Assembly: GCA_000442015.1 (NCBI GenBank)
Contig: KE560757.1
Location: forward strand, 1 to 56,601
Reading direction: 5' to 3'
DNA: 56,601 nucleotides
DNA from: Rozella allomycis CSF55
Lineage: Eukaryota
In this document: piece after piece, positions 5,423-37,234 of the stretch
Layout: every line of letters starts with the position of its first letter
How positions within the stretch are numbered: the stretch's first letter is position 1
Translations under genes and position numbers: made by a program
Notes under the pieces: generated by a model
Told to the model about the DNA's origin: nothing
The model's database searches: none
What the model saw: only the letters and a program-made list of their open reading frames with translations

Positions 5423-5779
5423 TTTTTACTGTGGCGTAGCTGCCATGGGTGACTTTATTGCTTTAGTCGTTAAAGAAAAGGGATATATGCAGTAAAAGGA
5501 TGTGATTTGAATTAAAAAATTAATATATGAAATAGAAACAAAAAGATGTAGACTTAAGTAGCAAAGAAAGTCATTCATGGAAATTGTAATGGAGTTTTTA
5601 TAGTTGATGGTTAAATATCAATCTAAGATAACTAATTTTCAAATATTGTCAAAAATGGTGCAATCTCTTTCTCTTGCAACTGAAAATAGGTTTCTAATTT
5701 TAGCAACTGTTCATTCAATGTTCACACATTCTATAAATCACTCTTTCATTCAACTCATTCCATTTAAATTAATTTTATA

Positions 5780-6931: not shown

Positions 6932-6982
6932 AATATTTTGGAATAAACTAAACCCATCTAATTAGTGGCTAGGCCATCAATA

Positions 6983-16238: not shown

Positions 16239-17714
16239 TTATTCGATTACCAATTCAGGCAAAGGAGGGATCTCAGGATATACCATTGGTTCGTCTTTGT
16301 TCTTTGAATCCATTATTTGTTGGGTTCCAACCACCCCGAGTGCAAACGTTCCGGTTGAATATGCTGCTATTCTTCCATATCTTTTCCACAATGACTTTTT
16401 GTTAGATCCTCCATCTGTTACTTGTCCGTCAGAGGAATGGCCTTGGCCGGGTGTACCTGCATCTGGAGTTTGAGTACCTTGATTGGCAACAGATGGTGCT
16501 TGAGAATCAGAGATTTCACTATGAGGATATGAGGGTCCAAAGCCTTGTGGTGCTGGCGCGTCGGCTGTATGGTGTACTCCACCGTTAGGCTGGTCCACAA
16601 AATGAGGATAATTTGGTCCAACTCCCTGGTCGTGATTTTGCAAAGGTGCTCCATTTTGTTGATTCATTTGATGTTGTTCAAATTGAGGTCTTTGCGTTGT
16701 TTGCACGTGAGTTGATTGAGGCATTTGAGCATGTTCTCCATTCATGTTTGCTGATGCTTGATGAGGCGGTACAATCTGCTGAGTGAATACAGCTTGGCCT
16801 TGATGGTTAGGTCTTGCTGCTGGAAGAACTGTTTGCGTTACTCCTGCAAGCGGTGCTGCAACGTGATCTCCGTTATCAGAGCCAGCATAAAAATCGTGCA
16901 TGTCAACCACCGAAGAAGCATCATCTCGGACTTCAGGTTTCTTTGCTGGTCCATTCGTAGTATCTTTCACAAGTTTAGCCTTTTCAACGGATCTGTTCAA
17001 CTCATTCGTGAATTTCTTGTGTTCAGTAGACCAAACCATGTCGGACCAGGTTTTGCCAGTAGATTTTCTTTTTGTAGCGATTTCTTCCAGAATGCGGTAT
17101 TGCTCGATTTTCTCTTGCAGTTTCAATTTTTGATCTTCATTTGTTGTCTTACTCTTGTCCGCTAGAGCAGCTTCTGTCTCGGTCTTTTTGGTAGCCATCA
17201 GATCTTTGAATGCGAGTACCTTTTCTTCGTCAGTCTTTGCATCACGTAATTTCTTGTATGCTGCATTTCTTTCTTGTGACATTTGCTCTAATTTATCATT
17301 CTTGAAAGTTTTAGAGCCTTTGGTGTCTTGTTTGAGAACATTGTATCCATGTTCCTTTTGAGCATCTTTAATATGCCACTGAAGGGAATCGTGTAAACTC
17401 TTTTGATCGTCAGCAGATAATTTATCGTAACGGCCCAAGTTTTCTAAAAGTCTTTCCTCGTGGATCGGCAATTCATGGCCTGCAACTTGGCCCTGTTTCT
17501 TTTCGTGTACTCTGCTCTTAAGATAGTCTGAAAACAGTTTCGTGTGTTTGCCGTTTTCGCCGATACTTGCCTTGTGCACTTGAAATTTTGACACTGGGGT
17601 GCGACTGTTTCGCATGAGACCGGATATCAATGCCTGATTTGGAGTTGGTGTGTTCGTGAGAGGATATGCTGTTGCATAAACTGCTATGAGGGTTATATGT
17701 AATAAATAATTCAT
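16239..17714 (-). CDS. Orphan secreted or membrane protein with K/E-rich helical region and Q/P/H/G-rich linker
   Basis: 491-aa intronless ORF with signal peptide 'MNYLLHITLIAVYATA' and a hydrophobic segment near the C-terminus. No recognised domain. Confidence 0.75.
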   Translation of the reverse strand: MNYLLHITLIAVYATAYPLTNTPTPNQALISGLMRNSRTPVSKFQVHKASIGENGKHTKLFSDYLKSRVHEKKQGQVAGHELPIHEERLLENLGRYDKLSADDQKSLHDSLQWHIKDAQKEHGYNVLKQDTKGSKTFKNDKLEQMSQERNAAYKKLRDAKTDEEKVLAFKDLMATKKTETEAALADKSKTTNEDQKLKLQEKIEQYRILEEIATKRKSTGKTWSDMVWSTEHKKFTNELNRSVEKAKLVKDTTNGPAKKPEVRDDASSVVDMHDFYAGSDNGDHVAAPLAGVTQTVLPAARPNHQGQAVFTQQIVPPHQASANMNGEHAQMPQSTHVQTTQRPQFEQHQMNQQNGAPLQNHDQGVGPNYPHFVDQPNGGVHHTADAPAPQGFGPSYPHSEISDSQAPSVANQGTQTPDAGTPGQGHSSDGQVTDGGSNKKSLWKRYGRIAAYSTGTFALGVVGTQQIMDSKNKDEPMVYPEIPPLPELVIE

Positions 17715-17906
17715 GGTGTTTCATATGAAATAGGGGTTTATATAACTTGGGGGTTCTAAAAATAGATATGAAACTGATGTGTGATTGGTTCAAAATAGCG
17801 CGTACAGAAATAGATTACGAAACTTATTTACTTTGAAGTATATTTTGCGATTATAAATAAATACATTATACTACTGTTAAAATAAAGAATTCAAATAGCA
17901 ATTTAT

Positions 17907-20900
17907 TTAAAAATCATCGTTATCTTCATTGATATCTTCTAATTTCATATTTTCCATATCAAGATCTTCTAAAAAGTCATCTCTTGTACCGGTAGTATTC
18001 ACTTCAAGACTCATGTTATCAGATCTGCCGTCAGTGCTTTTCTACATTAAAGAAATGTAACAGTGGTACTAGATCATCTTGGTATCTTTGAACAGAAACA
18101 TTTGAAGAAAATTTGACGGTTGAAATGGAAGGAAAAGTATTTGACGCAGCAGCTAAATTAGTGGAGATGGAATGGAATACCTTGATGGATATCTGAATTA
18201 AGAATTGATTGATAATTTTGCAAGTGGTGCCCAGAGAGAGTAGAAAACCTTTGAGAATTAATCCAAGATTCAGCATTTAGAGAAGTTTGAAGATGAGGAA
18301 ATTGATCAGGATTTGATTGAGGGTCCATGATGCGGTTGGCAATCTTTTTGGGTAAGCTTGATTTCCATTTGGAAAAGACAAGAGATAATTTTCTAAGTTA
18401 AACAAAATCATAATAAATACAAGGGACAATAAGATTGGGAATAAACGACGGCTTCACTGAATCTCTGAGACTTGACTAGAAGATTGATAATTTTGTCGTG
18501 GTTGTGGGTTAGAAAGTAGGCATTAAAAGCAATGTTATCTTGATTCAATTCTTCAGCTGTTTGAGCTAAGCGTAAAAGACCATTTGAATCACCAGATGCT
18601 TGATAAAGAATTAAAAGAGTTGAAAAGTCATTTGATTTCCATAAAGCTTTTTCAGCCAATTCAAAATTCCAGTCAGATAGAGCAGCGTCAGCTAGTTGAC
18701 GCCATTTGGAATCATTTGAAGGATCTTTTTCAGCCAATTCAAAAGCAACTTGTAGTTTATTTAATTGTATGGAAAGATTAAAACAATGTTCTTCATCATT
18801 TGAAATTTCTAAAGCTTTTTCTTTCAATCCCTGCTTTTCCAAGAAATGAGCTAAAATATTTTTATCAGATTGAGAAATTGAAGGTAATAAAGAAAATGCA
18901 GAATTTAATTCATTTCTAAGAATAAAAGATTTAAATGAAATAATATTTAAAGATAAAGAATAAGAAATTAAGTTTAAATCCTTGTCAGCTAAATATAATC
19001 TAGCATCCTTAGCCACATAACCCAAAATGAAAAATGGTGAATCAAACATTGAAATTGTAGAAACTTCATTTCCAACTGCATACGCCAATTTATTAGAATT
19101 TGTTGTAAAAATAAAACAATCTCCATTCCAACAGCCAGTCTTTACACTCTCATTCACTTCACAAATAAATTCAAATGATTCTTCAATCCCATCTTCTGAA
19201 ATTTCAGAATCTATTTTTAGTTTATATTCTTCAACATTCAACTTCAACACATAAAATGATTCTTCAGAAACAATAGTCAACAATTCATTATTATCACTCC
19301 AATAAACATTCTTTGCCGTAATATCAATTCTTCTTATCAATTTACATGTTTCCCAATCATAGAAACAAAGAAAATTAGAAGACTTCACTCCCAACAATAC
19401 TCCACCAAATAACCCTTCAGCTGAAAATGGAATCTTTAAAATCTCCTTCTCTTTAAATGATTTAAATATTTTAACAATCGACGTTGACTCTCTAATGGCA
19501 TACTCATTCGAATCCAATGACCAAACAAATTCCAACGCTGTTCCATAACTTTTATTTCTCCATGCTAAAGACGTATAAATTGTATATTCTCCATCTCCAC
19601 AAACTACAACAAACCTTCCATTTGGACTATGCTGAAGATTTTGTGCATACACTTCACTGTTACCCATCTCCTTTACATTCAAATTCAATCTCTCTCCATC
19701 TTTAATCTCTTCCACATTCTTCACATTCGCTGACATGATTTCATTATTCTTTGCCCACACAATCTTCCCACTGGAATCCATACTCATAGTTGGCTCTTCC
19801 TTTCCTATCTTTATAACAACAGTCCCCTCATCATATCCAAATCCCATAACATTCATCCCCTTCAAATAACACAAACTCCATCCCCTCTCAAACGAATAAT
19901 TCAACGTATTCTCCAATCGAAACGTCCCAGAGTTCCACATCCTAATCGTCCCATCCTCTCCAGCTGATATTATCAACGGCAAATCAGGATGAAAACAAAC
20001 TGCAGACACATTGTTACTATGCGCACTCAACGTCTGCAAACAACACTTGTTCTGATAATCCCACACTTTCACAGTTCTTTCACTCCTTTAAAATCATCTT
20101 ACTTGTCATCAGATCCAGACACCAAATACGGCTTATCGCCCCCATNCTATGCGCACTCAACGTCTGCAAACAACATTTGTTCTGATAATCCCACACTTTC
20201 ACAGTTCTTTCAATCTAATCAAATAATCTTACTTGTCATCAGATCCAGACACCAAATACGGCTTATCGCCCCCATGATAAAATTCAACACTATTCACACC
20301 CTTGCTATGACCTTCAAGCGTAAAATTAGGCACACTGGAATTCAAACTCCAAACTTTAATCGTCTTATCCAACGATGCAGTTGCAAATATATTCCCATCC
20401 TTGGGACTAAACACCACACTCATCACATAATGCGTATGTCCTTCAAAAGTCTATCTCTCAATCCACCGTTTCTTACCATAATACTCTTAAATCCCTTCTC
20501 CCAGTCCCACAGTCTCACAGTCATATCATCAGAACTAGACAAAATAAACGGCTTCTCCGCATGCACAGCCAAACACCTCAAATAATCCGTATGCCCTTCC
20601 ATCGTCGCAACCTTTTCATACGTATTATAGTTAATAATCCTTATCAACATATCATCAGACCCAATAACAATCCAATTCTTTCGCGTAATCCATCTCACTG
20701 CCCTAACTACCTTCAACACCACTATATTTTCTCACCTGGTGCATCAGTAACCTCAAACGTCTTTATTACGTTGGAAGTGTTGTAGTCTATTATCATCACC
20801 TGGCCATTATACATTCCTGCCAAAATCCATGGCTCGGTAGGATGAAACTCTACACTCTTGACACGTGATGAACGCTGTGATAATAGTTTCTGTTTTTATG

Positions 20901-20941
20901 CAAATTGTGCTGCTTACCTTTATATCTAGTCGCAATCCCAT
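17907..20941 (-). CDS. SEC27: Coatomer beta' subunit
   Basis: '[29 protein letters not shown]', WD40 repeats, '[16 protein letters not shown]'. Introns of 26-29 nt. N-flanked duplication at 20146. Confidence 0.96.
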
Positions 20942-21202
20942 GATAGAATATCGCCAAGCCACGCCAGCTCATTAATTCATTGTAAAGAGATGAAAAGAAT
21001 TAAAAACTAAAGGTTTATTTAAACATTTTATCATTATTTCATTGTTTTATATTCAAATGTAAAAATACTACGTTTCTCAAAAATATTAGATGTTGTTTTT
21101 TACAAACACTAAAAAGATATAATTACAAAAAAGAATTCATATATTCACATAAAATAGCTAAAATTTCTATTTACAATCTGCAATTAATCTTCCGATATAG
21201 AA

Positions 21203-21586
21203 ATGCCAAATTCTACTTCAGATTCAGAAGAAACATTCATGGAAATAGGTACAAAACCCTCTTATCAACTCGCACGAAAAACTTATGAACACGCATTCGA
21301 CGCAAATCAAAGCACAACCAAAACAGTATACATTCACGGCATCTCCCAAACAGCCCGCCCTTCCACATACATCGAAACCACAAATCCAGCAGCCTCACAA
21401 ATTCAACTCACATATTCTTCAAAAACATTAATTGGCAATTGGCAGGAAAACAGGGTGCAGGAAATGCTTCCACGTTACAACTCGCAAATAAAGAACCAGG
21501 ACTACTATAAAAACGCAGTCAGGCCCAAAGACTACTCTCTTAGCTTGAAAAACTATAATCTCTCCTCCAGCTTAAGCGAAAAATAA
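21203..21586 (+). CDS. Small protein with ciliary microtubule-inner-protein-like GNW motif
   Basis: 'YSSKTLIGNWQENRVQ' resembles the LIGNWxE motif of CFAP68/CFAP95/CFAP107/CFAP161-type proteins. Confidence 0.5.
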   Translation: MPNSTSDSEETFMEIGTKPSYQLARKTYEHAFDANQSTTKTVYIHGISQTARPSTYIETTNPAASQIQLTYSSKTLIGNWQENRVQEMLPRYNSQIKNQDYYKNAVRPKDYSLSLKNYNLSSSLSEK

Positions 21587-21661
21587 ATCATTATTGAAAT
21601 TTCTGAATTTTCTTGGTGAAAATTTCTTCTTCAGACCCTTGTCCAACTTGCACCGTAACTC

Positions 21662-21957
21662 ATGCAAAACAGCGAAGAAAGAATTGTTATTGGAGATCTT
21701 TACACCCCACACAAGTGGTACTTTTTTCCTTTTAATTTTGATATAGTGATGCCACCAACCGTTTGATCACCCCAAAAGATCATGCTTCTATCCAATTGAA
21801 TGTCGTTGATGTTGACGAAAATGGAGTCATGACTAAAACTTACAAGACCTATGCTCTTTCTGGATTCGTTCGCGCTCTTGGAGAAAGTGATGACTGTATC
21901 AACAGACTTGCTACTAGAGACGGATACCTCAAAAATGTCTGGTCTTATCAAAAATAA
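21662..21957 (+). CDS. RPS21: 40S ribosomal protein S21 (eS21)
   Basis: '[36 protein letters not shown]...[11 protein letters not shown]'. One 29-nt intron. Confidence 0.96.
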
Positions 21958-22012
21958 GCATAAGCAAATAAATTGCTTTAATTAAATCTAAGAAATTGTT
22001 TTATGAAATGTT

Positions 22013-23255
22013 TTATTGACGGAAAGTAGTTTCCATACATTTTAACACTGCTTTTAGAAATTCATCAGTGTGTCCTTTTCCACCAAGATCAGGAGTTCGA
22101 ATCTATCAAATTATTTTAATAATTTTACGTCAGTGGTTTTATATACCATATATATGGCCCTGGATAATTTGATTGCTTGATCTTCAAGGCCAAGGTGTTT
22201 AAGCATAAAGCAAGCACTTAGTAGGAAAGATGTTGGATTTGCTGAATTCAGATCAACGTGATGACCGACATGTCTTGCACCCTTTTTATAATATCGTCTT
22301 CAATTTACTGGTTCAAACATGGCATACTCAGTGCCAATGTTGCAACCCGGAATAAGACCTGGACCACCAACTAGGCCAGCGCCAATGTTACTAAGAATGG
22401 AGCCATAAAGATTGGGCATGACAAGAACGTCAAATTGTTGAGGTTTGCTCACCAGCTAAATTTAATTGTAAAACCATCTGGTACCTGCATTGAAGCGTTG
22501 TCGACAATCATTTCATCATAAATTATGCCACTGGATTTGTACTCTTCAGCGACTTTCTTAAAAGTGTTGAGAAACAGTCCATCACCCAATTTCATAATAT
22601 TGGCCTTATGAATGCATGTAACCCTCTTTCTGTTATTTCTTGCTGCGTAATCAAATGCAAATCTAACTATTCTCTCACATTTCGGCGCTGTCATCACTTT
22701 AAGGGATTCGACAACCCCGGGATATGATTGATGCTCCAATCCCGAATATTCCCCTTCAGTATTTTCTCTAATTATGGTAAAGTTAACATTATGGTGTCTT
22801 GTCTCAATACCAGGGATATTTTGGACGAAAGCCATTCCAGCATAGAGATCCAGGTTTTTCCGTAACAAAACATTCAATGACGTTGGTTTTCCCAACTCCG
22901 TTGAGGTGTGAATAATACCTTTTTAACAGTAGAAACTTATAATACCTTTCAAACACACTTTTGTTCTTTTAATTGATTCAAGGGCAGCTTTGAACGTTCC
23001 TTCGTCTGATTTATAACCAGATACATTAACCTCTTCCCAATCAATAGGCAAATTGGCAGATTTGAATATCGGTTTAACAGTATTGCATAATTCTTGACCT
23101 ATTCCGTCCCCGGGTATCAATGTCACCGTAAATCGCCCTCCATATGACAATCCGCTAGTTTTTAAAGGGGACTAGTAATCAATGTTTATAGCACATACCT
23201 GAAATTTGTTGTGAGCAACAACAGTTCCATATGATTTCCTTATTATTCTCTGCAT
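22013..23255 (-). CDS. IDH1: NAD-dependent isocitrate dehydrogenase subunit 1
   Basis: '[16 protein letters not shown]', '[24 protein letters not shown]', '[13 protein letters not shown]'. Five 26-29 nt introns. Confidence 0.92.
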
Positions 23256-23447
23256 CAAAGAAGTTGAACCAGGGTGTATAGGTGATATTTGTGAAAACAA
23301 AGTAATAGGAGAGATTATATAAAACTATTCAAAAATAATCAAAATTATCGTATATTGCACGTAATTAGTCTGTAGTCATAAACTCTTAAATGAAATTTCA
23401 TGAATCATGATATTTTTTATTGAATAAAGGCTGAAGATACTTCTTAT

Positions 23448-23789
23448 TCATTTTAATTTTACAGGAATATCAAATTTTGACGAAGGGACCAAAGTACAAG
23501 GCTTGGAGTAAACATCCGAAGGAAATTGAGGCGAAAGAAATGCAGATGTAGACGTATACTTGTTTTTGCTGTGAGAAATGTCGGGCTTTTCTTCTTATAT
23601 TACATGATAGTTCAACTTACCTTCAGTCATAACTAAAAATGGGTGCGAATGAAATGGTTGGCAGTTATATCGATGTGAAAGAGCGGACACCACCGTCGAT
23701 TCATTCTTTACTAGAATCTCTAACTCCTTTTTTGTTCTTCGAGAAAGATCGGGTTTTGTGCAAGCGTAACTTTCGTACAATGTGAACAT
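23448..23789 (-). CDS. Hypothetical small protein
   Basis: ATG-initiated frame that stays open across a 27-nt GT-AG intron. No recognised homology. Confidence 0.5.
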
Positions 23790-23825
23790 GGAAAAATCTC
23801 AAAGTGAGGGAAGTTAAGTATTTAT

Positions 23826-25693
23826 TTATATCAAAAGCAAATTGGGTATTTCTTCTGTGATATACTAGAATAGTATAAACTATATTTAATTACATTTCGA
23901 TAAAGGTCATTAATCTTCATTCTCATGAAACACTTTAATGGAACGGTTTCTCTCTTAAGCCAAATTTCCTTAATCTCCAAAGATAGATTAGGCTCTCTTA
24001 AATCAGCTAACGATTCATGGATTTCGAACCAATCATGTAATACTTCCCTTATTATTCGAAATCCTGATGGGTAAAGACCCAGTGCACGAATAAGGCGATG
24101 TAAATGACACTGAATAGTGGTATGAAATGATTTGAAAACAACCTATATATTTCTTTAAAATCAAACTCTTACTTCAAGAATATCGTCAGATACAATACAA
24201 GAGTTAGGTTTATAGTCCTTCAACTTGGTTAAAGGCTTATAGATTCTAACTCCACCATAATCCCTAAAACAAAATCCGAGAATTTTAATTTTCTGACATT
24301 TCGCTTCATCAAGAGATTCCACGACCAGCAAGGTGTTTTGGCCATGTGCTTCAAGTGCAAAACCGTCGAAAATTAAGGGAGGGAGAATGCAATCAAAGAG
24401 CTTTGCCGAGTATTCTTTTAAAAATATTTCTCTTTGAGCCTGGGTGGAAAGTTTGAATGCGTTAATAACATTTGTTTCTCCAGATAAATCTTTTTCAACC
24501 AAAGACGCAGCCATGATAAATCTAACGCTATTGACGTTCTCATTATCGTCAGTCAAAAAATCTCTTGCTCTAGGTCCATCCCTGACAATCATGCCAAGGT
24601 ATTTACTTATGTCAGGATCCTCATGTGTGAAGCCTGCACTTGCGACTTCATGGCAAAACCCTAATTTTGTTTCCGCTTTTCTTAAACGTAAATATGAAAG
24701 GCATTTTCTCTTTATATCGTCTAGTACAACCGATATTCTCGGCCCATTATATATTGAATATGGAGAAATAGATCTAAGTGCTGATGTTGTTTTTACTCCA
24801 AGTGACAATTTTAGATGTATTTTTGAATGATCTAACGGTTGCTTAACCGGTACAAGTGTTCTTATTGAAACTAAAGGGTGAGATGGCAGACATATCCCAT
24901 CAAATATTTGATAAACACCTTTCGGAATTTTATCTTCCAGTGATTTTATATTTCCTGGGTGAATTATTATCAATGCTTCATCCTGAGACATTTCTTCCAG
25001 GTGCTCTTCAGGGCTCTTATAATCACCTATATTCATCGAGCATTCACGAAATAACTTTTGGGTTATTTTGATTAAATCACCGTGAATTTGAAAATCTCTA
25101 ACTTTAATTTTAGCAAATAGCAAATTGACAATCGAATTTGACTCGCAAGAGAATCTCAGTGATTCATCAAGTGTTAAACCTAGCCTAGTTCTGTGCATCT
25201 GCTCAAAATCCTAAAAATATTTTACAGGATGGGTTGCGTGGCCTTCTATTACTGTGGATTCCCACTCTATTTCCGATGCTGTTAAGGGTGGGCAGTACTT
25301 GAGCATTGCAAACGATTGAACTAGTAAGAAAGATAAACTTGTCTTACATTGATTTTCAACCGAATTTTGAAGTTCTTCATAAATATTTTCCAAGTTTTCT
25401 AAATTAATCAAGGACTTTATTAAAGTCTTTGGATCCACACAAGAGTTGTCATAATCTTCTTCGAAAATTGCTATAGGGAATTTGAAGTCCATAGGATCAA
25501 CATAAACAGCACCGTTTTTCTCTATGGGCTTATTAATAATACGACATTTGAATAGATTCGTCTCACTGTCCAAGGGTCCAACAAAGAGTTCCTCGTGATA
25601 AAATTTGTATGAAATTAGTCTTTCATTTATCAAGGTACTCAAAAGCCTCTTTGATGTTGAGAAATGACATGCTTCCATAACTATATTCACCAT
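23826..25693 (-). CDS. IucA/IucC-family NRPS-independent siderophore (NIS) synthetase, rhizoferrin-synthetase-like
   Basis: 'EGHATHP|MHRTRLG', 'SIRTL', 'HLKLSLGVKTTSALRSISP', 'ALEAHGQNTLL', 'FRDYGGVRI', 'HLHRLIRALGL'. Four 27-30 nt introns. Confidence 0.9.
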
Positions 25694-25776
25694 AATTTTT
25701 CTGGACAACAAGTGGCGAAGTTTGTTCTGTATAAAAATTACGATAAGCTTTATTTATAAAAATTATATTTATTATA

Positions 25777-26795
25777 TTAATAAAAATCTTCCATTCCATT
25801 GTAATCTTTCCTGTCTAATGCTTCCAGGCCTAGTTGAACTACACCAAGCTTTTTTTGCAGAACTTGCAAAGCAGATATTAATACCTCTTCTGGTTTCATC
25901 GCCCCAGTGGTCTATAAAATTAATTTTTTTTGACTACCTCGACATTAAAGTAAAATTTATCTGGTTCTGCATGTGGATCAAACGCTTCATCGACTGGATA
26001 TTTCTCTCTTTCAGAATATCTACTTTTTGGCCTGTAGATATGAATAAAATAACGCATTTACCATTCTTTATCAATATCTTCCTCAACCCAAAAGGTTGTA
26101 TGTCGTAACAAATTATCTGGATCGTATTCAAATTCGACTGCGGATACTGGGGCCCATTTTGAGTGTTCTTTAGCGACCCCCATTTTCGCGATGCATTTCA
26201 ATTTCACTTCTTGATTTTTTCTCAGCTTTACGATCAAAACTCCCTTGTCCCCTTCACTTGTTTTAATGGGTACGACGTCAGGATTTTGACTAATCAATTG
26301 AACACTAGTGACGTCCTTTGTTTGATCGTCTTCGCATCTTTATTTTACTCAAGGATAATAAAATTACTTGGCATGTAGATATAGTTCAACGGAACATAAG
26401 TTGCAGTGTTCTAGACAATTACAATCCTAAAATGAAAACAAAGAATCATAGTCACTCTGGTATATTTGAAATTATTAACAGTTGAGCTTGTCAATGGAAT
26501 TAAGCCTAATCTCTGACTTAGCATCTCATCGCATATAACAGAAGAATTCAATTCTATTTCGACAAGGTCGATTGCTTTTGATTTAAAAATGATTAAATTA
26601 CCTATAAATAAAACTAGAAAAGGTTTTACCTATTGTTGGGACTTCAGCGAGTAAGATCCTTCTCAACCCATTTGCTAAACTGGTTCACGGCAATAAATTC
26701 ATATACCTTAAATCACAATCACTTAAAGTAAACTTTATGGAGTCACTTTTGACTTCCTGGACTGTAATTTTAGGTCTTTTTGGAACGGCAACCAT
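25777..26795 (-). CDS. RPB3: RNA polymerase II subunit RPB3
   Basis: '[23 protein letters not shown]', '[30 protein letters not shown]', 'FEYDPDN'. Multiple mini-introns including a tandem pair. Confidence 0.95.
26575..26629 (-). other. Two abutting spliceosomal mini-introns (28 nt + 27 nt) with zero-length exon
   Basis: ATA G|gtaaaaccttttctagttttatttatag|gtaatttaatcatttttaaatcaaaag|CA ATC GAC restores 'PTIAIDL'. Confidence 0.75.
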
Positions 26796-26844
26796 TTAAG
26801 AAAAATATGAATCCCGGCATTCTAAAACAGTTGAAATGTACAAT

Positions 26845-27178
26845 TTATTTTTTTCCCTCAATTCTGACAAATTGTCTCCATGCTTCATATTTTTCTGGGC
26901 TTCGATCAGAGTCATTACGGAGAACCGATCCAACGCCCATGAACAATCCAAACGATGCACCAGATGTGGCCATGTATTGAAAAACGGTGCGCAAATAACG
27001 CTGAGACATATTCACTCTTCTTCCTCTAAAATTTAAGTAATGTGCGATAATAATACTGTATGTATGCCATATTGCCAAAGACAAACCCTATGCAACATCC
27101 GACAATCCCGCCCATGAAAACTCCTAATTTAAACTGATTCCAGTATCTTTGAAATTCAGATCCTTTATCTTGCTTCAT
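26845..27178 (-). CDS. MGR2: Mgr2/Romo1 TIM23 subunit
   Basis: 'QFKLGVFMGGIVGCCIGFVFG...YMATSGASFGLFMGVGSVLR'. One 31-nt intron. Confidence 0.9.
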
Positions 27179-27324
27179 TTTGGTAATTTCCAGTGAAACG
27201 GTTCTGCGCCACGTTTACTTCTTATAGAGTTAGGTATTAAGAAACGAATCGCAGTGAAACTTTTATGGAACATGCCATTAAAGTTTCACTCAAAATCTCG
27301 AATGTGTGAAATTTCTTAAACGCC

Positions 27325-28287
27325 ATGGATGACCCATTGTACGAAAAATTGCATGCTTTGGAAGATGATCGTAGCAATAGAGATGAAGATTCAGATAGAA
27401 CAATTGATTCATTGGAGTTAGGAGAATTCATCGAGTCTTTAGAAGGCAGTGATGTGGAAATTCAAGATGACGAATATTGTCTTCCTGCAAACACAGTAAA
27501 TTTTCGATAAATAAATTAAAGTCTGATTTAACACCGCGATTACATAACACTGGGCCAAAAGGAGTCCTCGAAGAATACAAAATCCATCAAAAGGGGCAAA
27601 GAAGGGAAAATGCGCTAAAGACTAGAATGGTTTGGGACATGGCAAAAAAGAATAGTCTAGCATTAAATAAATCATTTGGGGAGACAGAAAAAGTAAGGAC
27701 CACTTATTCCTAGCATAGGACCTTGAAGAAATATCTAAAATTAGGGAGAAAAGATTAAGAGAATTAAAACAAACGAAAGTATTCAAGTAAGTAATTTTGA
27801 CTCACTATTACATAATTAGGAGGAAATTTGGTCATTTATATATAGTTGAAATGCATCAATTTTTACGTGAGATTGAAAATGAACAAAATGCTGTCCCTAT
27901 TATTGTACATTTATATAACGAGGTAAAATTTAAGTTTATTTCCAATGTGATTTCAGATGATTGTCAGGCACTAAATGAGTATATGAAAAGCCTTTCCAGA
28001 AAATATCCATTCGCCAAATTTTTAACAATGGAGGCTTCTCAACTCTCTGACAAGTTTGATATTGATGTAGTCCCGATACTTCAAGTTTATTACAGCGGGA
28101 ATCTTTCCCATAATTTTGTACGCCTTGTAGATTATCTGGGCGAGAATTTTACAAGCTGGGATCTTGAAATTTTTTTGAGAAAGTAAAATATAAAATACTT
28201 TTTGTTCCAAGATATGAAATTCTCACGAGTAACCATGAAGGAGAATTTGACAGCGACATAGAGCAGGAAGTCAGTGATTCAGAATAA
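27325..28287 (+). CDS. Phosducin-like protein (PhLP1 type)
   Basis: 'HNTGPKGVLEEY', thioredoxin-like 'IIVHLYNE...CQALN...KYPFAKF...VVPILQVYYSGNL'. Several mini-introns, one probably GT-TG. Confidence 0.88.
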
Positions 28288-28522
28288 GATAATAAATTGC
28301 GCCTTAAATATAGAACCATTAACACCTAATAACCTATGGGGTCTTAATTTATTATCCATTCATTTGTTTTATTTGCCCCAAATGAACGCTAACCAGATTC
28401 ATTGTCAATTAAGCTCGGATTAGATTTAGTACAACTAAAAAATGGGCGAAAATTTAATTAATAGATTCTTTAACTTTTTTTCCAAAAAATGGTCAACTTA
28501 AAGTGGCTAGGCAAGGTTTGCT

Positions 28523-29894
28523 ATGGTCAATGTGGAAGGGGATGATGAATCTCAAATCGCCCTGTTAAATGACATTAATGAGAAACCAAAACAACGGATT
28601 TCAATCACTTCATCTGTGTTTAACCTGTCTAATACCGCGATTGGTGCTGGAACTATTGCCATCCCTTTTACATTCAAAATTATGGGTATATTCAACGCAA
28701 TATTCTCCTTGATATTGGCTGCAGTTACAACCGCATTTTCATTGCACTTTTTGGGCAGAGTATCATCTGAAACCAACACTTATTTATATTCAGGTAGTGA
28801 TAAACTAGTCTTAATAACGATAGACTTAAGTTTAAAGACCTTTGGTAAAAGAGGAGAGTTAATAACAATTATCGTGATGATGTTGTTAATGTTTGCTCCT
28901 CTGATTGCATACCAAATTATTGTCGGTGATGTTGCATATTCGATTTTACAATACTGTTTTCCGGCATTAACTGAGGAATGGCTTTTCGATCAAAGATTTG
29001 TCACCTTTGTAACAACGTTCTTCATCATTTTTCCCATTAGCCTCACCACCAATTTAAAAGTTTTAGGGAAGCTTAGTTTTGTATGTCTTATTTGCATTTT
29101 ATATATCATTGTCCTTATCGTAATAGATCTTTTCTTAGACAGCAATGTGGACCTTCAAGAGATTTTGAAATTGCCGTACTTCAAGTTTGATTTGTCTATG
29201 TTGGGAGCATTCGCAACTATTTTAATGGCTTTCATTAGTCATACAACTGCATTAGATATTTTTTCTGTTTTAAAGGACCCTTCAACTACTCGCAAAACCG
29301 CAGTTATTGTATCCACAAATATTATTGTTCTGGTTTGTTATATTGGTGTTGGACTCTTTGGCTATTTACATTTCCAAGAAGATGTTTTAGGTAAGCCGCT
29401 ATCTAATTCACAATTAGATAACATTCTACTACAAAAGAATACAATCCCATACTTGATCGGATGTGTGTCTTTTGGATTAATGATATCATTTACATATCCT
29501 TTAATTCTTATTCCTGCAACACATTCTTTAACCTGGATATTGGAAAACACATTTTCATCATTGTCTGTCATGTTGAAAAGAATGTCGCCAAAGAAAAGGC
29601 ACATCATTTTCGCATTTAGTTTTATTGTGATATCATTTTGTCTTAACCTGATATGGCACCGAATAATTTTTGTATTTGCATTCTTTGGCTCCCTGTGTGG
29701 ATCAACTATTGTCTTCATTCTACCATCTCTGTATTTTCTTAAACTTAAATCTGATACTAAACCTTCTGAATGGTAAGTAAGCCAATGAACTTGGATCTAG
29801 GGAACTAGCGGCGGCGTATCTGAATCTCGCAGTGGGTATCTTATTATTGGTCTTTGGAACTGGCAGTCAAATTTATGTCTACATAATTGGTTAA
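28523..29894 (+). CDS. AAAP/SLC38-type amino acid transporter (AVT-like)
   Basis: 'SSVFNLSNTAIGAGTIAIPF', many TM helices, 'GSLCGSTIVFILPSLYFL'. Three mini-introns. Confidence 0.9.
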
Positions 29895-29956
29895 ATAAAT
29901 ATTCATTTTCGCGGTGATATTTTTTCTGTTTAATCAAGCCACGCAAAAATTTACTG

Positions 29957-31052
<1,096 letters not shown>

Positions 31053-31073
31053 ATTTCATGAATTGAATTGAAT

Positions 31074-32440
31074 TCAACGCCTTTTTTTATTGTACTTTTT
31101 TTGGATTGTTTCTAGGTAGTCATCGCATTTCTTAAAAATTGATAAGAAATGTTCATATTCCTTTAATTGTGCTGAAAACATTTTACTTGGGCTACAAAAG
31201 TTTCATTTAAACATTCATTAAAAATTTCATTTCTATTTTCTTCATTGACCCAAGCGCGGGCTTTCTTTACAGAATTTTTGAATTTGGAATCAGTTTTTGA
31301 TAAATGGTAAATTCTCTCGACTAATCGACCAAGCAATACAAATAAATAATGCGATAATTTATGATAAAGTAATGCTCGTTGATTACAATAGCGATCGACT
31401 AGAAAATTTGCTCTCACTTTTCCTAGATTGGGTTCAGTCTTAATTTCTTCATATTCAGCTTGGCCTCTTTCAAGAGCTTCATTATCTGAAATTTCATCAT
31501 CTGTAGCTACGATATCTGAACAATCCGAGTCGTCAAATTCTTCAGCTTCAATATTTAAAAATTCATTCTCTCTTTCTGACAATTCTTCTTCTGATATATC
31601 AGTATCATCATCTTGATTATTTTCTTGTACGCTAAATTTGTCTTCTAGTAATTTTATGAGCCTCTTTTTTCTCTGAAGGATCTTTAAATACAAAATTTAC
31701 CTTAAAAGAAAAGGTGCTGTAAGGAGTCCCTTTGAGATTTAAATGATATCTGATCAGACGCTTTTTATGACAGCATTCACATTTAGAATCTTTCTGTAGA
31801 TAAACATCAGTATCAGACAATGTCAAATCTTCGATCCGTGGAAATAATTCCAGGGCTGCTTTAAATCTCTTCGACCATCGATCAGAAGATAGCATATTTT
31901 TATAATCTTCTATTTTCATTTTAATTTTATCGTAAGGAATCGAAAAATAGACATCCCTCCCATTTTTTAAAACTGAATTTAAGAAAGTATTGTCTAAAAT
32001 ATGCGACACCAACATTTGTAATGTAATTTGGAAATAGTACTTTTCACTTTGCGGTTTAACTATTTGAAACGCTGGTGTAGTTTCTTTTTAAACTATATAA
32101 TCTTTTGGATACCTGGTTCTTCATTTTCAACAACGAAACCTTTCAAGTCTTCATCCCAATTAGAATCTTCAGACGACGATTCGCTATCAGATCTATATTC
32201 AAATTTTGGTAAATGTTACAAATTTATTGATNTATTCAAATTTTGGCTAATGTTACAAATTTATTGATTTTCTTGGTCCTTTTTGCCGCTCTACGTTAAC
32301 AACTCATCCAGATCTTACTCATAACTAAACTCTGGAGTTTCTTGGACTTTGAAAGTCTATTTCAAATCTCCACTTAAATTTTACTTGGTTTCTTTCTTTA
32401 CTTGTTCCTCATCATCATCAGAAGAAACAATTCTTTTCAT
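31074..32440 (-). CDS. DUF4211/CCDC82-like protein, paralog 1
   Basis: 'SSDRWSKRFKAALELFP...KCECCHKKRLIRYHLNLKGTPY' and 'FLVDRYCNQRALLYHKLSHY'. Confidence 0.7.
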
Positions 32441-32574
32441 TCTAGGTTCAGCCACAGTTTTGAAATGTGACAAACGACAAATTGAAAAAAAGTATTGATG
32501 TGTAGTTCATCTAATTCTTAATTTCGTGAAGGTAAGAAGTAAAAGGTCGAAAATTGGGAAAATGCTTATCAAAA

Positions 32575-34089
32575 CTAATTTATTTTGTTGGCATGTCTTT
32601 CTTCCAAAAGAAAGGCATCAATGCCACTAACTAAATTTGTGAATATGTTAAAATCCTAGATTTAAAGGGCAATAAAAGTTATTACAGACTCTACGAAATT
32701 CTCCTCTCTCAATATGTACTTTACTGTCGAATCCATATCATCTTTTGACAATTTGGGCCAAGTTCTTGTTTCTTCAATGCAACTAGCAGTGTTATTCACC
32801 AATAAACAAACATTTTCAAGTATAGCATTAAAATAGTGATACAGAAAATGATATAGCTCATGAAAGTAAGTGGATCTCGAATGACAATATCTTCCAACAG
32901 CAAAAGTCAGCTCCTTATCGTTTAAACTATAATCAATTGTATGTGGCAACGATTCATCGCTACTGCTCTCCTCTTCATAGTTTTTCAATTTCTTTTCGTT
33001 TTCCTTTTCAATCTGCAAGTATTTTTCCGTGTTTTTAACTACGTTCGGATTAATCGATACCCTTTTCTTTTGATCGGCTAGAGCTGTTAACATATCATCA
33101 TCCTCGCTATCCTCAAGAACCACACGTCCTTTATGCTTCACTTTATTCTCTCTAGCTTCATCATCACTTCCATCTACTTCCTCATCATCAATAAAATCCG
33201 ACATAAGCATATCATGTGAAGAAGAAATCGGTTGTTCCTGCTCGTCAATCGCCTCAGGATGAAAGACACTAAAAACTTGTCGCTTCTTTCTTTTTTCTTT
33301 TTCAAAAGTATTTCTATTGTAAGGTTCTCCTGAAAAAGATAAAATAAATGATGCAATTCTGTGTTTCTTATTGCATGCTGTACACTCGGGTCTTGCGAAA
33401 ATGGTTTCTCTTAAAATCTCTTGTGATGACATTTCTGGATAATTTTTAATTACAGCCTATAATAGTTAGAGCAAAGGGAATACTTCGAAATCCTTCTTCC
33501 AAGCATGAGAGTACAGAGTATTGGTGGAAGCATCAATTTTCGCTTTTATAGATTCAATGGCAGCTATATATGGGTTACCCATCGATCTATTAATGCTGTT
33601 GAAAAATTTATCGTCCAAAATGTGTCGAACATAAACTTCAGTCATTAGTTTAAAGTCAAGCCATGGATCTTTCCTGAGCATGATAAATGGCAAAATGGGA
33701 TCAGATGCTAATTTCTCTGACAAATCATTTTGTTCATTCGTAGAAGTGGTGTCTGATGATACTGTTATGACACTATTTGAAGTAGATCCTTCATCAGATG
33801 TGACATCGTCTTGATCACTAATTATATCATGATCATTCTTGTCTGTTCCTTCGACTGTTGGACTAAATTATTTATTTTCATGAATTTTTACCTTTTATTT
33901 ATGATTTCAAATGGTTTCGTCTTTTCTAATTAGACTTAATAAACTTTGTTACTTTTCATAAGTAATTCAAGTCTTTGTCTTCTTTCAGGCGTTCTATTCT
34001 TTGCTTATTGTAAATAAATACTTTAATTTTGGTAGATCATTCTCAGAATCTTCAGATTCCGATGAACTGGTCAAAATTCTTTTAGGCAT
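32575..34089 (-). CDS. DUF4211/CCDC82-like protein, paralog 2
   Basis: 'SHAWKKDFE|AVIKNYP...CTACNKKHRIASFILSFSGEPYN' and 'FAVGRYCHSRSTYFHELYHF'. Confidence 0.75.
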
Positions 34090-34233
34090 TGAAATTTACA
34101 AGTTACCACAGTACAGGCCGGGAAAGATTGTATTATTTGTATAAATTTTTGACAATTACATTCAAGCAAAAAACATGTAGGAAAATGATTTTTTAAGCCA
34201 AGTTTACTCCAATTGAAAAGTATCCAAGGTAAA

Positions 34234-35121
34234 ATGTCAGACACCAATAACGTTTCAAGAAATTCATTTTTGAACACGCCCTCATGTTACTATGATTCAA
34301 CAAGAAGACATTCATTTGAATCTTATAGTTCATTTACAAAATCTAAAGCGGATAAAAAGCATTACTCTTCCACAAAAGATATAGATTCCCTTTTGCTTAT
34401 CCCCGATGAACAATCTTTGCCTAATTTTCAACCTGATATCGTTGATAACATGTGTGGAGATGTTGACGATTTGATATCTCTTGCTGACAATAAATGTGCT
34501 CGACAATCACAGCCAAACGTCTCCAGATACAGAGTATCGTTGGAAGATCTTACGTATAGCACGGAAATTAATGAGGTGGCCACAGATATTGAAACAATTT
34601 TGGGGTATGCCGAAAGTCGAGATGTCGTCAATTCGATCTTAAGCGTGGACATTGATACTTTGCTTCAACAAGAAGATCAAATATTGCAAATTTCTAAACC
34701 TGGAGAATTCACTGAAATGGACCATGTTGATCAATACAGACCATTGATCCGATCAAACTCTGATATTGACCAAATGATGGAAATAGGCGAAAATCTATAC
34801 AATTCAAATTCTTACGAAGATACATTTCATTCATTTTTTGAAGATTATTCAATTAATGATATTGACAGCTTATTGCAGGCAAATAGAGTTGGCTCAGAAG
34901 GGAATTTAAATCGCTACCGTGGATCTGTATCAACATTATATATGAAAGACCAAGGCATGGAATATTTATCTCGTAATAACCTTCCATCTCAAACGCCACA
35001 GGACATTGATGACTTGTTGCGACTAGCCATAGAGGAAATTGAAAGAGGAATAATATCAGACAATGATATAAGAACAGAAAAACTTGATATTGATAGTATT
35101 ATAGCATTAGCAGTTCAATAA
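34234..35121 (+). CDS. Orphan acidic protein with eight D-I/V-D/E-x-hydrophobic-hydrophobic motifs
   Basis: Intronless ORF with DIDSLL, DVDDLI, DIETIL, DIDTLL, DIDQMM, DIDSLL, DIDDLL, DIDSII. Confidence 0.75.
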   Translation: MSDTNNVSRNSFLNTPSCYYDSTRRHSFESYSSFTKSKADKKHYSSTKDIDSLLLIPDEQSLPNFQPDIVDNMCGDVDDLISLADNKCARQSQPNVSRYRVSLEDLTYSTEINEVATDIETILGYAESRDVVNSILSVDIDTLLQQEDQILQISKPGEFTEMDHVDQYRPLIRSNSDIDQMMEIGENLYNSNSYEDTFHSFFEDYSINDIDSLLQANRVGSEGNLNRYRGSVSTLYMKDQGMEYLSRNNLPSQTPQDIDDLLRLAIEEIERGIISDNDIRTEKLDIDSIIALAVQ

Positions 35122-35166
35122 ACTTTGCTCTTTGTTTGATTAGCTATTAATAAATTTCGGATTTTC

Positions 35167-37234
35167 ATGGAGGATTTTCGGAACTTGTCGTGGGATAACT
35201 CCTCATCGAAATCAAAGGACCTTAATAAAGACAAAACGACCATGCAAGAAAAAACAGCCACTTCTCCTTTATCCGCTGCATATTCACAGCCATGTAAGTA
35301 TTGATAACACGTTAAAAAGATTCAATGTCAAATAGATCATTTAATGGCTTTGCCAATAATGATATACAATCTCCAAATTCTAGTATTCCTAGATCTGTAG
35401 TTGATTCTAATAACCAAGCGAAGAAAACATTTGATGATCCATTTGGGAATCTAATTTCGTTTGGCTCTTCCAAAGTGCAATCACCATCAAATATGTCGCT
35501 TGATGAACAAATGAAAATGATTGAAAAACAGAAACAAACGCAAATGCTAAATTCTTTTAGCTCCTTGTCAGTAAAGAGTACATCGCTAAATCCTGTTGCT
35601 GGACCTACTTTTCAAAATCAAAACACCCCTAAAACATCACCTTTAGACACTTGGAATCTTGATTATTTGGAAAATACTTCTCCAAAGGCAAATAGTTCAG
35701 TGAGCAAGAAGCAATCAGAAAGGGAACTTATATTTGATATTTTTGAAACTCCTACAACCATAAAAGTGAAAGATGATGAGAAAAAACCAACGCCATCATT
35801 TCAACAAACCGGTAATTCTGAAAGTATGGCTCTTCCAATTAAACCGACAAGACAGCCAGAACCAATTTTCTCATCGCCAAGGCTAGATTCTAATAAGGAA
35901 TCGAAATCTAGTATTGAAATTCAAAAGTTAGTTGAAATGGGATTTTCTAAAGAAATGGCTACCACTGCATATAATGCATCGAATAGAGATCTTTCCGCAG
36001 CGGTTTCTTTGCTACTGGCAACTCAACAGACCGAAAAGGCGCAACAAATTAAAAGAAATGATTCTAACCAAAGCATAAGTAGCGAAACTGTTTCTAAAGT
36101 GGTATCTAACGTTGCCAATTTTGGTATGAATTTGTTTCAGAAAGCAAAGTCAAAAATATCAAATGTTGTTGAGCAACAGTTGAATAAAGGCTCAAATAAT
36201 TGGCATGATGAAGAAGACGAAGAAGATTATTATAAACAAGACACTAAAGAAACGTCCAATAATTCGAACCAACAGATGAAACCAATTATCCCGCAAGTGT
36301 TCAAAGCCCCTGTGGTTCAGAAACAGAAAATAGAAGCCCCAGATTCAGTCACTCAAGCGGCTGAAATTTTAAAAGAGCAAGGAAATGTATATTTTAAACA
36401 AGGGAATTACACAGATGCTGAAGACAAATACACAAAAGGCATTGAAATGCTCCCTGCTGGGCATGAGCTGTATATCTGTTTATTGAACAATAGAGCATCT
36501 TGCAGATTAAAGAATGGAAGTTATAAATCTGCGGAGGAAGATGCTTCAAAAGTCCTTTCCTTTGAACCCAATGATTTAAAAGCGCTACTCAGACGAGCTA
36601 ACGCTTATGAAGCCCTTGAAAAGTTTGATAAAGCTCAGGCTGATTACAAATCTATCTTAACTCTGGATCCGTCTATCAGCTCAGCATCACAGGCGTTATC
36701 CAGGATTAACAAGGGATTAAAACAATTAAACGATGGAAATACAATAGAGAAAAGTATTAATTCTGAAATTAAATCATCGTAAAAATGTATTTTGAAAATT
36801 ACTCTAGTCACGTTGACCCTTCGGTAAAAGCAGCTCAGGAAGCAATCGTGAATAAACTAAAGGAGCAACAAAAAGCCGCCGAAGTTGAAGAGCAAGAAAA
36901 ATTAAGTTTCAAGGATCAAGTTGATGATAAAGTAATTAAATGAATTCAGAATTGACAGATTAACGCTTGGAAGCATCAAAAGGAAACCAACATAAGGGCG
37001 CTTTTATCATCTCTCGAAGTAATTTTGTGGAAAGAACTAGAATGGAAGCCTGTGAACTTGTCTGATTTAATTCAACCGAATAAAGTTAAAATTCAATATA
37101 TGAAAGCAATCGCCAAGTTACATCCTGACAAGTTGGGTAACAATCTGTCAGTTGAGCAAAAAATGATAGCCAATGGTATCTTTTCTGTTCTTAATCAGGC
37201 ATGGGATGCTTTTAAAGCTCAAAATAATATGTAA
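35167..37234 (+). CDS. SWA2: Auxilin-like clathrin uncoating factor (UBA-TPR-J domain)
   Basis: 'DDPFGNL', UBA 'KLVEMGFS', TPR repeats, J domain 'NIRALLSSL...YMKAIAKLHPDKL'. Confidence 0.9.

What the first reader, a model, noticed from the sequence alone, without database searches (positions are those of the whole stretch)
26575..26629. Back-to-back mini-introns with a zero-nucleotide exon in RPB3 (candidate recursive splicing)
Seen: the conserved RPB3 motif EVPTI-A-IDLVEI is interrupted by 55 nt, about twice the length of every other intron here. An internal AG|GT junction splits it exactly into two typical introns: gtaaaacc...tttatag (28 nt, 26602-26629) and gtaattta...tcaaaag (27 nt, 26575-26601). 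No exonic base lies between them. Inference: a spliceosome limited to about 26-33 nt would remove it in two steps. Recursive splicing is mostly described for very long animal introns, so a tiny-intron version would be unusual and could record intron duplication or insertion at a splice site.
Basis: partly seen in the sequence, partly recalled or inferred. Interest (0 to 1): 0.8.

Follow-up and report, generated by a model that had tools for sequence, protein, structure and literature searches.

The report
Two abutting mini-introns in Rozella RPB3
In the RNA polymerase II subunit gene RPB3 of the fungal parasite Rozella allomycis, two complete 27-28-base introns sit back to back with no exon base between them, which probably forces two-step splicing and has put nine spurious amino acids into the public protein model.

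Summary
The window is a contig of Rozella allomycis CSF55. RPB3 lies on the minus strand (25777-26795), with introns of 27, 55, 29, 30, 30 and 26 nt. The 55 nt (26575-26629) split at a central AG|GT into a 28-nt and a 27-nt unit. Each unit has splice-site scores typical of the 61 other introns I could define, which are all 26-33 nt.

Random 55-nt introns of intron-like composition show such a central junction in 0.36% of draws, and one with units this good in 0.012%. None of 44 other RPB3 proteins, 77 metagenome loci or the solved structures has residues at this site. The public model nevertheless keeps unit b as a 9-residue insert.

The intron position is old. L061, L063 and probably P0011 each have a single intron there.

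Two-step splicing through a zero-length exon is the best reading, at about 0.6, but it is untested because no RNA data for this organism could be reached. A recent duplication of one intron is not supported. I rate it a new variant of a known kind, with moderate interest.

The parts
25777..26795 (-). RPB3 (RNA polymerase II subunit 3) coding region from ATG to stop, 7 coding exons
   Evidence: Gene model built. One search gives the gene span 25777-26795. Exon 5 matches Pfam PF01000. It is 100% identical to the public Rozella allomycis CSF55 protein P0003. The best PDB matches are Pol II RPB3 chains, E 1.5e-73.
26630..26679 (-). Exon 2, ending ...EVPTI plus the first base (G) of the Ala codon
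   Evidence: Translation; coordinates.
26602..26629 (-). Unit a: 28-nt GT..AG mini-intron (5' GTAAAA, 3' TATAG)
   Evidence: Splice-site PWM score 1.62, GC 0.214. It is removed in the public model P0003.
26601..26602 (-). Junction AG|GT: the 3' splice site of unit a abuts the 5' splice site of unit b (zero-length exon)
   Evidence: The chance rate of such a junction is 0.36%, or 0.012% with units this good.
26575..26601 (-). Unit b: 27-nt GT..AG mini-intron (5' GTAATT, 3' AAAAG). Its length is a multiple of 3 with no in-frame stop, and the public model reads it as GNLIIFKSK.
   Evidence: PWM score 2.23. GC 0.148, lower than all but 3.5% of exonic 27-mers. The 9 residues are absent from all other homologues and from solved RPB3 structures.
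26456..26574 (-). Exon 3, starting with CA (completing the Ala codon) and then [11 protein letters not shown]...
   Evidence: Translation; coordinates.
26680..26706 (-). RPB3 intron 1 (27 nt); position shared with L061 and P0011
26427..26455 (-). RPB3 intron 3 (29 nt)
   Evidence: agrees with P0003.
26338..26367 (-). RPB3 intron 4 (30 nt)
   Evidence: agrees with P0003.
26032..26061 (-). RPB3 intron 5 (30 nt)
   Evidence: agrees with P0003.
25912..25937 (-). RPB3 intron 6 (26 nt)
   Evidence: agrees with P0003.

Best explanation
The 55 nt are two complete, independent U2-type GT-AG mini-introns (28 nt and 27 nt) that abut at an AG|GT junction, with a zero-length exon between them. They occupy an old phase-1 intron position of RPB3 in Rozella allomycis. 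Functional mRNA lacks all 55 nt, giving the universal ...EVPTI-A-IDLV... protein. Each unit carries its own good 5' and 3' splice sites and has the length this organism's spliceosome normally handles (26-33 nt). The stretch is therefore most likely removed by two successive splicing reactions. If unit a goes first, exon 2 is joined directly to the 5' splice site of unit b; the -4..-1 context stays ATAG, so the site is regenerated unchanged, and unit b is then removed. If unit b goes first, unit a follows. What is shown: the anatomy, the fit of both units to local intron statistics, the non-random central junction, and the absence of the 9 residues in every homologue. What is inferred: that both units are excised, that the internal sites are used, and the order of excision. 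The public protein model, which keeps unit b as 9 residues, is then an artefact of gene finders that cannot place a zero-length exon.
For: Sequence and coordinates.

Both units fit the local intron population. The 61 other introns are 26-33 nt long, with PWM scores from -1.41 to 4.72 (median 2.65) and mean GC 0.24. Unit a is 28 nt, scores 1.62 and has GC 0.214. Unit b is 27 nt, scores 2.23 and has GC 0.148.

Read as one 55-nt intron, the outer sites score only -0.28, and no intron over 33 nt could be verified in the window.

The central AG|GT is expected in 0.36% of random 55-nt introns, and with units this good in 0.012%. It is the top tandem arrangement among 96 in the window.

No residues lie between ...PT[IMLV] and A/S/T/C-ID... 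in 20 of 22 proteins covering the site in A1, in 24 of 26 in A2, or in 77 of 80 metagenome loci. The exceptions are introns or read-through introns. Solved RPB3 chains align with a 9-residue gap exactly opposite GNLIIFKSK. The AlphaFold2 model of P0003 drops from pLDDT 89-93 to 67-71 across the insert.

In 41,745 nt of predicted exons, no 26-31-nt GT..AG segment combines PWM >= 2.23 with GC <= 0.15.
Against: There is no RNA evidence of any kind, so neither removal of unit b nor use of the internal sites has been observed.

With a flat prior, 9 of 62 predicted introns were 39-67 nt. I showed only one of these to be a gap between two genes, and I judged the rest by eye.

No branch-point motif could be defined, so I cannot show that each unit has its own branch site.

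Splice-site score alone is not proof. Two of the three exonic look-alikes with PWM >= 2.23 are conserved coding sequence.

Unit b is a multiple of 3 in length and free of in-frame stops, so its retention would give a translatable protein.
Confidence: 0.6

Rival explanations
1. A single 55-nt intron is removed in one reaction from the outer GT (26629) to the outer AG (26575), using a branch site in the 3' half. The central AG|GT is unused.
For: The outer sites are canonical GT..AG, and removal restores the frame. A relative (P0011) appears to carry a single 57-nt intron at the same spot whose peptide read-through cannot encode AGGT (my reasoning). L061 has a single 36-nt intron there. Nothing shows that this spliceosome has an upper length limit.
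Against: None of the 61 other introns exceeds 33 nt. A central AG|GT with both halves intron-like is expected in only 0.012-0.36% of random 55-nt introns. Unit a has its own good 3' site 28 nt from its 5' site, which an intron-defining spliceosome would be expected to use first (inference). No RNA structure brings the outer ends together: z = -0.56 for the 55 nt and -1.72 with flanks.
Confidence: 0.2
2. Only unit a is an intron. Unit b is coding and gives Rozella RPB3 a lineage-specific 9-residue insert (GNLIIFKSK), as in the public gene model. It might be the main product or a regulated isoform.
For: The public model P0003 reads it this way. Unit b is 27 nt, in frame and free of stops. AlphaFold2 models it as a short excursion without breaking the fold, with pLDDT 67-71.
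Against: No other RPB3 examined has any residue at this site: 44 proteins, 77 loci and the solved structures. Unit b starts GTAATT and ends AAAAG, is exactly the modal intron length, scores 2.23 and has 14.8% GC, which only 3.5% of exonic 27-mers reach. A gene finder cannot output a zero-length exon, so the public model is not independent evidence (inference).
Confidence: 0.08
3. Origin rival, independent of mechanism: the pair arose by recent tandem duplication of one intron.
For: Both 5' junctions share the 8-mer ATAG|GTAA. Tandem duplication across an AG|GT is a recognised route to new introns; it is listed among mechanisms in the passages of PMC13685798 and PMC7138796.
Against: The global alignment score of a against b is 2.0. 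The mean for 1830 random intron pairs is 2.75, and 65% of pairs score as high or higher. The shared 8-mer is simply splice-site consensus.
Confidence: 0.1

Closest known systems
Recursive splicing at ratchet points or zero-length exons in Drosophila and vertebrates, with two cases in Schizosaccharomyces pombe
   Same: A 3' splice site is directly followed by a 5' splice site (AG|GT) inside an intervening sequence, so the first reaction regenerates a 5' site and the rest is removed in a second reaction. Sources: abstracts of PMC8605326 and PMC5126111 in the listing, and passages of bioRxiv 10.1101/226894 on a zero-length exon in a 336-nt S. pombe intron.
   Different: Known cases subdivide long introns, from 336 nt in S. 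pombe to many kilobases in animals. Here the whole stretch is 55 nt, and each half is a full-size intron for this organism. Either unit could go first, because both are complete. No RNA evidence exists here.
Stwintrons (spliceosomal twin introns) of filamentous fungi and Lipomyces
   Same: These are fungal complex intervening sequences removed by two consecutive standard U2 splicing reactions. They are proposed to arise when new splice sites appear inside an existing intron (abstracts; passages of PMC7138796). One of the two origins I consider here matches that route.
   Different: In a stwintron the internal intron interrupts the donor, branch or acceptor element of the external intron, so the order of excision is fixed. 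Here the units abut and neither interrupts an element of the other.
Genomes with uniformly tiny introns (Paramecium about 25 nt, Stentor, Nyctotherus, nucleomorphs, myxozoans)
   Same: The intron length distribution is very narrow and short, the 5' signal is reduced to about GTA, and the introns are AT-rich (abstracts; passages of PMC13644364).
   Different: Rozella is a fungal relative, not a ciliate, and uses the standard code: RPB3 ends at TAA. In the papers I opened (PMC12862383, PMC13685798, PMC13644364), the terms recursive, tandem intron and adjacent intron found no description of abutting mini-introns.

Membership tests
U2-type GT-AG spliceosomal intron (each unit taken separately) | GT at the 5' end and AG at the 3' end | tested here: met
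   unit a runs GTAAAACC...TATAG and unit b runs GTAATTTA...AAAAG.
U2-type GT-AG spliceosomal intron (each unit taken separately) | Length and splice-site composition within the organism's own intron population | tested here: met
   The units are 28 and 27 nt, against 26-33 nt for 61 introns. Their PWM scores are 1.62 and 2.23, against a range of -1.41 to 4.72. Their GC is 0.214 and 0.148, against a mean of 0.24.
U2-type GT-AG spliceosomal intron (each unit taken separately) | Removal restores the conserved reading frame and protein | tested here: met
   Removing both units gives ...EVPTI-A-IDLV..., as in all homologues. Removing unit a alone gives an in-frame 9-residue insert seen nowhere else.
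U2-type GT-AG spliceosomal intron (each unit taken separately) | Branch-point element at a suitable distance from the 3' site | tested here: inconclusive
   An EM motif search on 61 introns gave a weak motif. Its median site score was 2.73, against 1.80 for shuffled interiors, and its positions were scattered 8-24 nt from the 3' end.
U2-type GT-AG spliceosomal intron (each unit taken separately) | Excision seen in RNA | not testable with these tools
   No RNA holder was listed. The one run laid (X1) does not hold this organism.
Recursive splicing through a zero-length exon (ratchet point) | Juxtaposed 3' and 5' splice sites (AG|GT) inside the intervening sequence | tested here: met
   Junction at 26601/26602; non-random.
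Recursive splicing through a zero-length exon (ratchet point) | A functional 5' site is regenerated after the first step | tested here: met
   From the sequence alone: exon 2 ends ...ATAG and unit a ends ...ATAG, so after unit a is removed the 5' site of unit b keeps the same -4..-1 context.
Recursive splicing through a zero-length exon (ratchet point) | Splicing intermediates or separate lariats detected | not testable with these tools
   Searches gave no usable RNA.
Recursive splicing through a zero-length exon (ratchet point) | Host intron is long, and recursion serves to subdivide it | tested here: not met
   The whole stretch is 55 nt.
Stwintron | The internal intron interrupts the donor, branch or acceptor element of the external intron | tested here: not met
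   The two units abut end to end and each has intact ends.
RPB3 / RpoA-insert family (PF01000, PF01193) | Sequence match to the family and to solved RPB3 chains | tested here: met
   Exon 5 alone matches PF01000 at E 2e-07 with 31.7 bits, just under the 33.9-bit cut-off for that fragment. The full public protein carries PF01000 and PF01193 and matches Pol II RPB3 chains at E 1.5e-73.

The most novel reading that the evidence does not exclude
Rozella's spliceosome works only on introns of about 26-33 nt. Under that constraint, ancestral introns either shrank to one unit or survived as exact multiples: strings of abutting mini-introns with zero-length exons, removed one unit at a time. RPB3 would be the first visible member of a genome-wide class that gene finders systematically mis-annotate, either as in-frame inserts or as broken genes. 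It would show a length ceiling on splicing and a way around it.
Probability: 0.2. Interest if true: 0.75.

Novelty: new variant of a known kind. Interest (0 to 1): 0.5.

Why it matters
There are three reasons.

1. It corrects a core gene. The public Rozella allomycis RPB3 protein very probably carries 9 residues that are really an intron, and RPB3 is used in phylogenomic data sets for the Rozella/Microsporidia branch.

2. It exposes a blind spot. Gene finders cannot output a zero-length exon, so any further cases in this or other tiny-intron genomes will be annotated as inserts or frameshifts.

3. If the two-step route is real, it is recursive splicing at the opposite end of the size scale from where it was discovered. 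It would make directly testable the question of whether very narrow intron length distributions reflect a mechanical ceiling of the spliceosome or only mutational and selective pressure. The test is to mutate or survey the central AG|GT.

Tried and rejected
RNA evidence. The look-up of sequencing runs on 21001-31000 listed no RNA holder. It listed only X1, a metatranscriptome with the same species label and next to none of the words. Laying X1 on 16601-36600 at 85% likeness gave 14 short, poor pieces (none at 99% or better) and nothing on RPB3. There is therefore no information on expression or splicing.

Whole genome. None is held, so the proposed genome-wide scan for a 52-60-nt length peak could not be run.

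Branch-point motif. EM on 61 introns found nothing clearly better than shuffles.

RNA structure bridging the outer splice sites. Not significant.

Close relatives with DNA. The metagenome scan returned 80 RPB3 loci, but none was a close Rozella relative with tiny introns. The best, L003 at 65% identity, starts exactly at the site.

A second protein search restricted to the N-terminal 110 residues found no other R. allomycis version of the protein.

Ciliate origin and ciliate code, my first guess from the intron size. Rejected (Rozella) and by the TAA stop of RPB3.

Longer introns predicted under a flat length prior (9 of 62). One bridges two different genes, a PI-PLC-X gene and an ML-domain gene 51 nt apart. 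Several contain a normal 26-31-nt intron plus an in-frame extension. None was verified, and not all were disproved.

Literature. Searches found no description of abutting mini-introns in Rozella or other tiny-intron genomes in the held library. Supplementary tables that may give Rozella intron statistics were closed, for example Table S7 of PMC8042348, whose text gives a range of fungal intron medians from 29 to 197 bp. The original Rozella genome paper was not found in the library.

Full report
What the window is. Exon 5 of the gene under the finding is 100% identical to a 282-residue public protein named from Rozella allomycis CSF55, and the longest contig recorded for that protein is 56,601 bases, the length of this window. 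The window has 34-37% GC over most of its length. It uses the standard genetic code: RPB3 ends at TAA after ...MEDFY. My first guess of a ciliate was wrong. No whole genome is held for the window.

The observation. On the minus strand the gene runs from the ATG at 26795 to the stop at 25777. Its introns are at 26680-26706 (27 nt), 26575-26629 (55 nt), 26427-26455 (29), 26338-26367 (30), 26032-26061 (30) and 25912-25937 (26). The 55 nt split at an internal AG|GT into 26602-26629 (28 nt, unit a) and 26575-26601 (27 nt, unit b), with no base between them. The exon before ends ...LLAEVPTI plus a G. The exon after starts CA and then reads [11 protein letters not shown].

How unusual 55 nt is here. 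I wrote a small dynamic-programming gene finder: a 3-periodic Markov coding score, GT..AG introns of 18-120 nt, and chained introns allowed.
- With a trained splice-site matrix and a length prior it predicted 58 introns of 23-33 nt.
- With a flat length prior it predicted 62 introns: 51 of 26-33 nt, 2 of 23 nt and 9 of 39-67 nt.
- Of the nine long ones, one bridges two distinct genes only 51 nt apart, a PI-PLC-X gene and an ML-domain gene. Several are a normal 26-31-nt intron plus an in-frame extension. None was verified and not all were disproved.
- The working set of 61 introns (56 predicted with lengths 24-34, plus 5 in RPB3) has lengths 26 (10), 27 (17), 28 (12), 29 (12), 30 (5), 31 (4) and 33 (1), and mean GC 0.24.
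- Several boundaries are confirmed by homology. The public RPB3 model agrees with five of my six RPB3 intron sites and with unit a. Exon ends in the deoxyhypusine synthase and M36 genes coincide with alignment ends.
- A published text gives fungal intron medians ranging from 29 to 197 bp, without saying in the passages I saw which species has 29 (PMC8042348; the table is in a closed supplement).

Each half looks like a normal intron. On the splice-site matrix, unit a scores 1.62 and unit b 2.23, within the range of the 61 introns (-1.41 to 4.72, median 2.65). The outer sites alone, read as one 55-nt intron, score -0.28. GC is 0.214 for unit a and 0.148 for unit b, and only 3.5% of exonic 27-mers are as AT-rich as unit b. 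Among 96 GT..AG|GT..AG arrangements with 24-34-nt halves in the window, this is the best by far: its weaker half scores 1.62, against 0.30 for the next. In 200,000 simulated 55-nt introns of intron-like composition, a central AG|GT giving two 26-29-nt halves occurred in 0.36%, and one with both halves scoring at least 1.62 in 0.012%. The central junction is therefore not an accident of composition.

Unit b is not coding. The public model P0003 removes unit a only and reads unit b, which is 27 nt, in frame and stop-free, as GNLIIFKSK between EVPTI and AIDLV.
- In alignment A1, 22 of 28 sequences cover the site. Twenty are contiguous and two have inserts: P0003 with 9 residues and P0011 with 19.
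- In A2 all 26 sequences cover the site. Twenty-four are contiguous, and the same two have inserts.
- Of 80 metagenome loci, 77 are contiguous (57, 14, 6). One is cut at the site (L003) and two have an intron there (L061, L063).
- Solved RPB3 chains align with a 9-residue gap exactly opposite the insert.
- An AlphaFold2 model of P0003 falls from pLDDT 89-93 to 67-71 over residues 41-60.

As a caution, splice-site score alone is not proof. In 41,745 nt of predicted exons, three 26-31-nt GT..AG segments score at least 2.23. Two of them, overlapping, are conserved deoxyhypusine synthase codons. None also has GC of 0.15 or lower.

Age and origin. L061 has a 36-nt GT..AG intron at the same codon and phase, and also shares the intron-1 position. 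L063 has a long, pyrimidine-rich intron ending immediately before the CA of the same Ala codon. P0011 is an ORF call from a 1,595-nt contig. It carries 19 extra residues at this site and 14 at the intron-1 site, and both start and end as read-through GT..AG introns would. Its peptide cannot encode AGGT in any register (for the peptide; the AGGT argument is my own reasoning). The position is thus old and elsewhere holds one intron.

The two Rozella units are no more alike than random intron pairs. Their alignment score is 2.0, against a mean of 2.75, and 65% of 1830 pairs score as high or higher. A recent duplication is therefore not supported. Two origins remain open. One is insertion of a second intron at the AG|GT of an existing junction. 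The other is the appearance of internal splice sites in an ancestral intron of about 55 nt while the rest of the genome's introns shrank to one unit. The second is analogous to the stwintronisation proposed for Lipomyces (PMC7138796, passages).

Mechanism. What is shown is anatomy and statistics. What is inferred is that both units are spliced, and spliced separately. The argument has three parts.
- The internal sites are too good and too well placed to be chance.
- Unit a presents a complete intron of normal length before unit b is even transcribed.
- After unit a is removed, the 5' site of unit b keeps the same upstream context, because exon 2 and unit a both end in ATAG.

Either order would work, because neither unit interrupts an element of the other.

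One-step removal of 55 nt cannot be excluded. Nothing demonstrates an upper length limit. I could not define a branch motif. No RNA structure bridges the ends: z = -0.56 for the 55 nt alone and -1.72 with flanks. No RNA data could be reached.

Comparison with known systems. The arrangement works like recursive splicing at a zero-length exon. That is known from long Drosophila and vertebrate introns (abstracts in the listing) and from two S. pombe cases, one in a 336-nt intron (bioRxiv 10.1101/226894, passages). It differs in scale, 55 nt in all, and in that each half is a full, normal intron. It is not a stwintron, because no splice element is interrupted. In my searches and in the passages I opened I found no description of abutting mini-introns in Rozella or in other tiny-intron genomes. 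That covers only the held library. I recall, without having seen it in any call, that Paramecium work links 3n stop-free introns to translational surveillance.

Verdict. The likelihoods are about 0.6 for two abutting mini-introns removed in two steps, about 0.2 for a single-step 55-nt intron, and about 0.08 for a retained 9-residue insert. It is a new variant of a known kind and of moderate interest. The immediate practical result is a probable error in the public RPB3 model. The larger question, whether there is a length ceiling on splicing and a class of unit-multiple introns, needs RNA and the whole genome.

Noticed in passing
window 24161-25693 (-): The gene directly downstream of RPB3 matches the IucA/IucC family (NRPS-independent siderophore synthetase type) at E 2.5e-24, with a weak FhuF-like hit. 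This is an unusual family for a eukaryotic parasite and a possible horizontal acquisition.
   Followed up: no
window 11138-11164 (-): A 27-nt, in-frame, stop-free GT..AG segment (PWM 2.77, GC 0.22) lies inside the M36 fungalysin-type protease ORF. Against solved M36 chains the surrounding loop is 11 residues longer than in the references. It could be another mini-intron read as coding, but the region is variable, so this is undecided.
   Followed up: partly
window 6931-6983 (+): Two unrelated same-strand genes, one with a PI-PLC-X domain and one with an ML domain, are separated by only 51 nt. Intergenic spacers here can be as short as two introns, which makes a flat-prior gene finder fuse neighbouring genes.
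   Followed up: partly
whole window, 61 introns: 23 of 61 introns have lengths divisible by 3, and all 23 carry an in-frame stop. Of the other 38, 14 have no stop in the read-through frame. My finder is biased against stop-free 3n introns, so this may be a detection artefact. Unit b would be the exception either way.
   Followed up: partly
window 2001-6000; 2594-3181; 3995-4100: There is strong negative GC skew (-0.37 and -0.53) over an RRP5-like gene with S1 domains. Short 12-15-nt tandem repeats lie at 2594-3181. A 106-base run of N at 3995-4100 and eight single Ns are scattered through the window.
   Followed up: no
P0045-P0048 (relatives): Four ORF calls from genomic contigs of relatives stop at ...CIAKKV, where other sequences continue ...CIAKKG. 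This is as expected for an unrecognised intron after the Lys codon. Rozella has no intron there, so intron positions differ among these relatives.
   Followed up: no
window 29957-31052 (+), 27325-28287 (+), 28523-29776 (+), 35167-37234 (+): Other genes recognised near RPB3 are deoxyhypusine synthase, a phosducin-like protein, an amino-acid transporter (Aa_trans) and a TPR/UBA protein. All have introns of 26-33 nt.
   Followed up: partly
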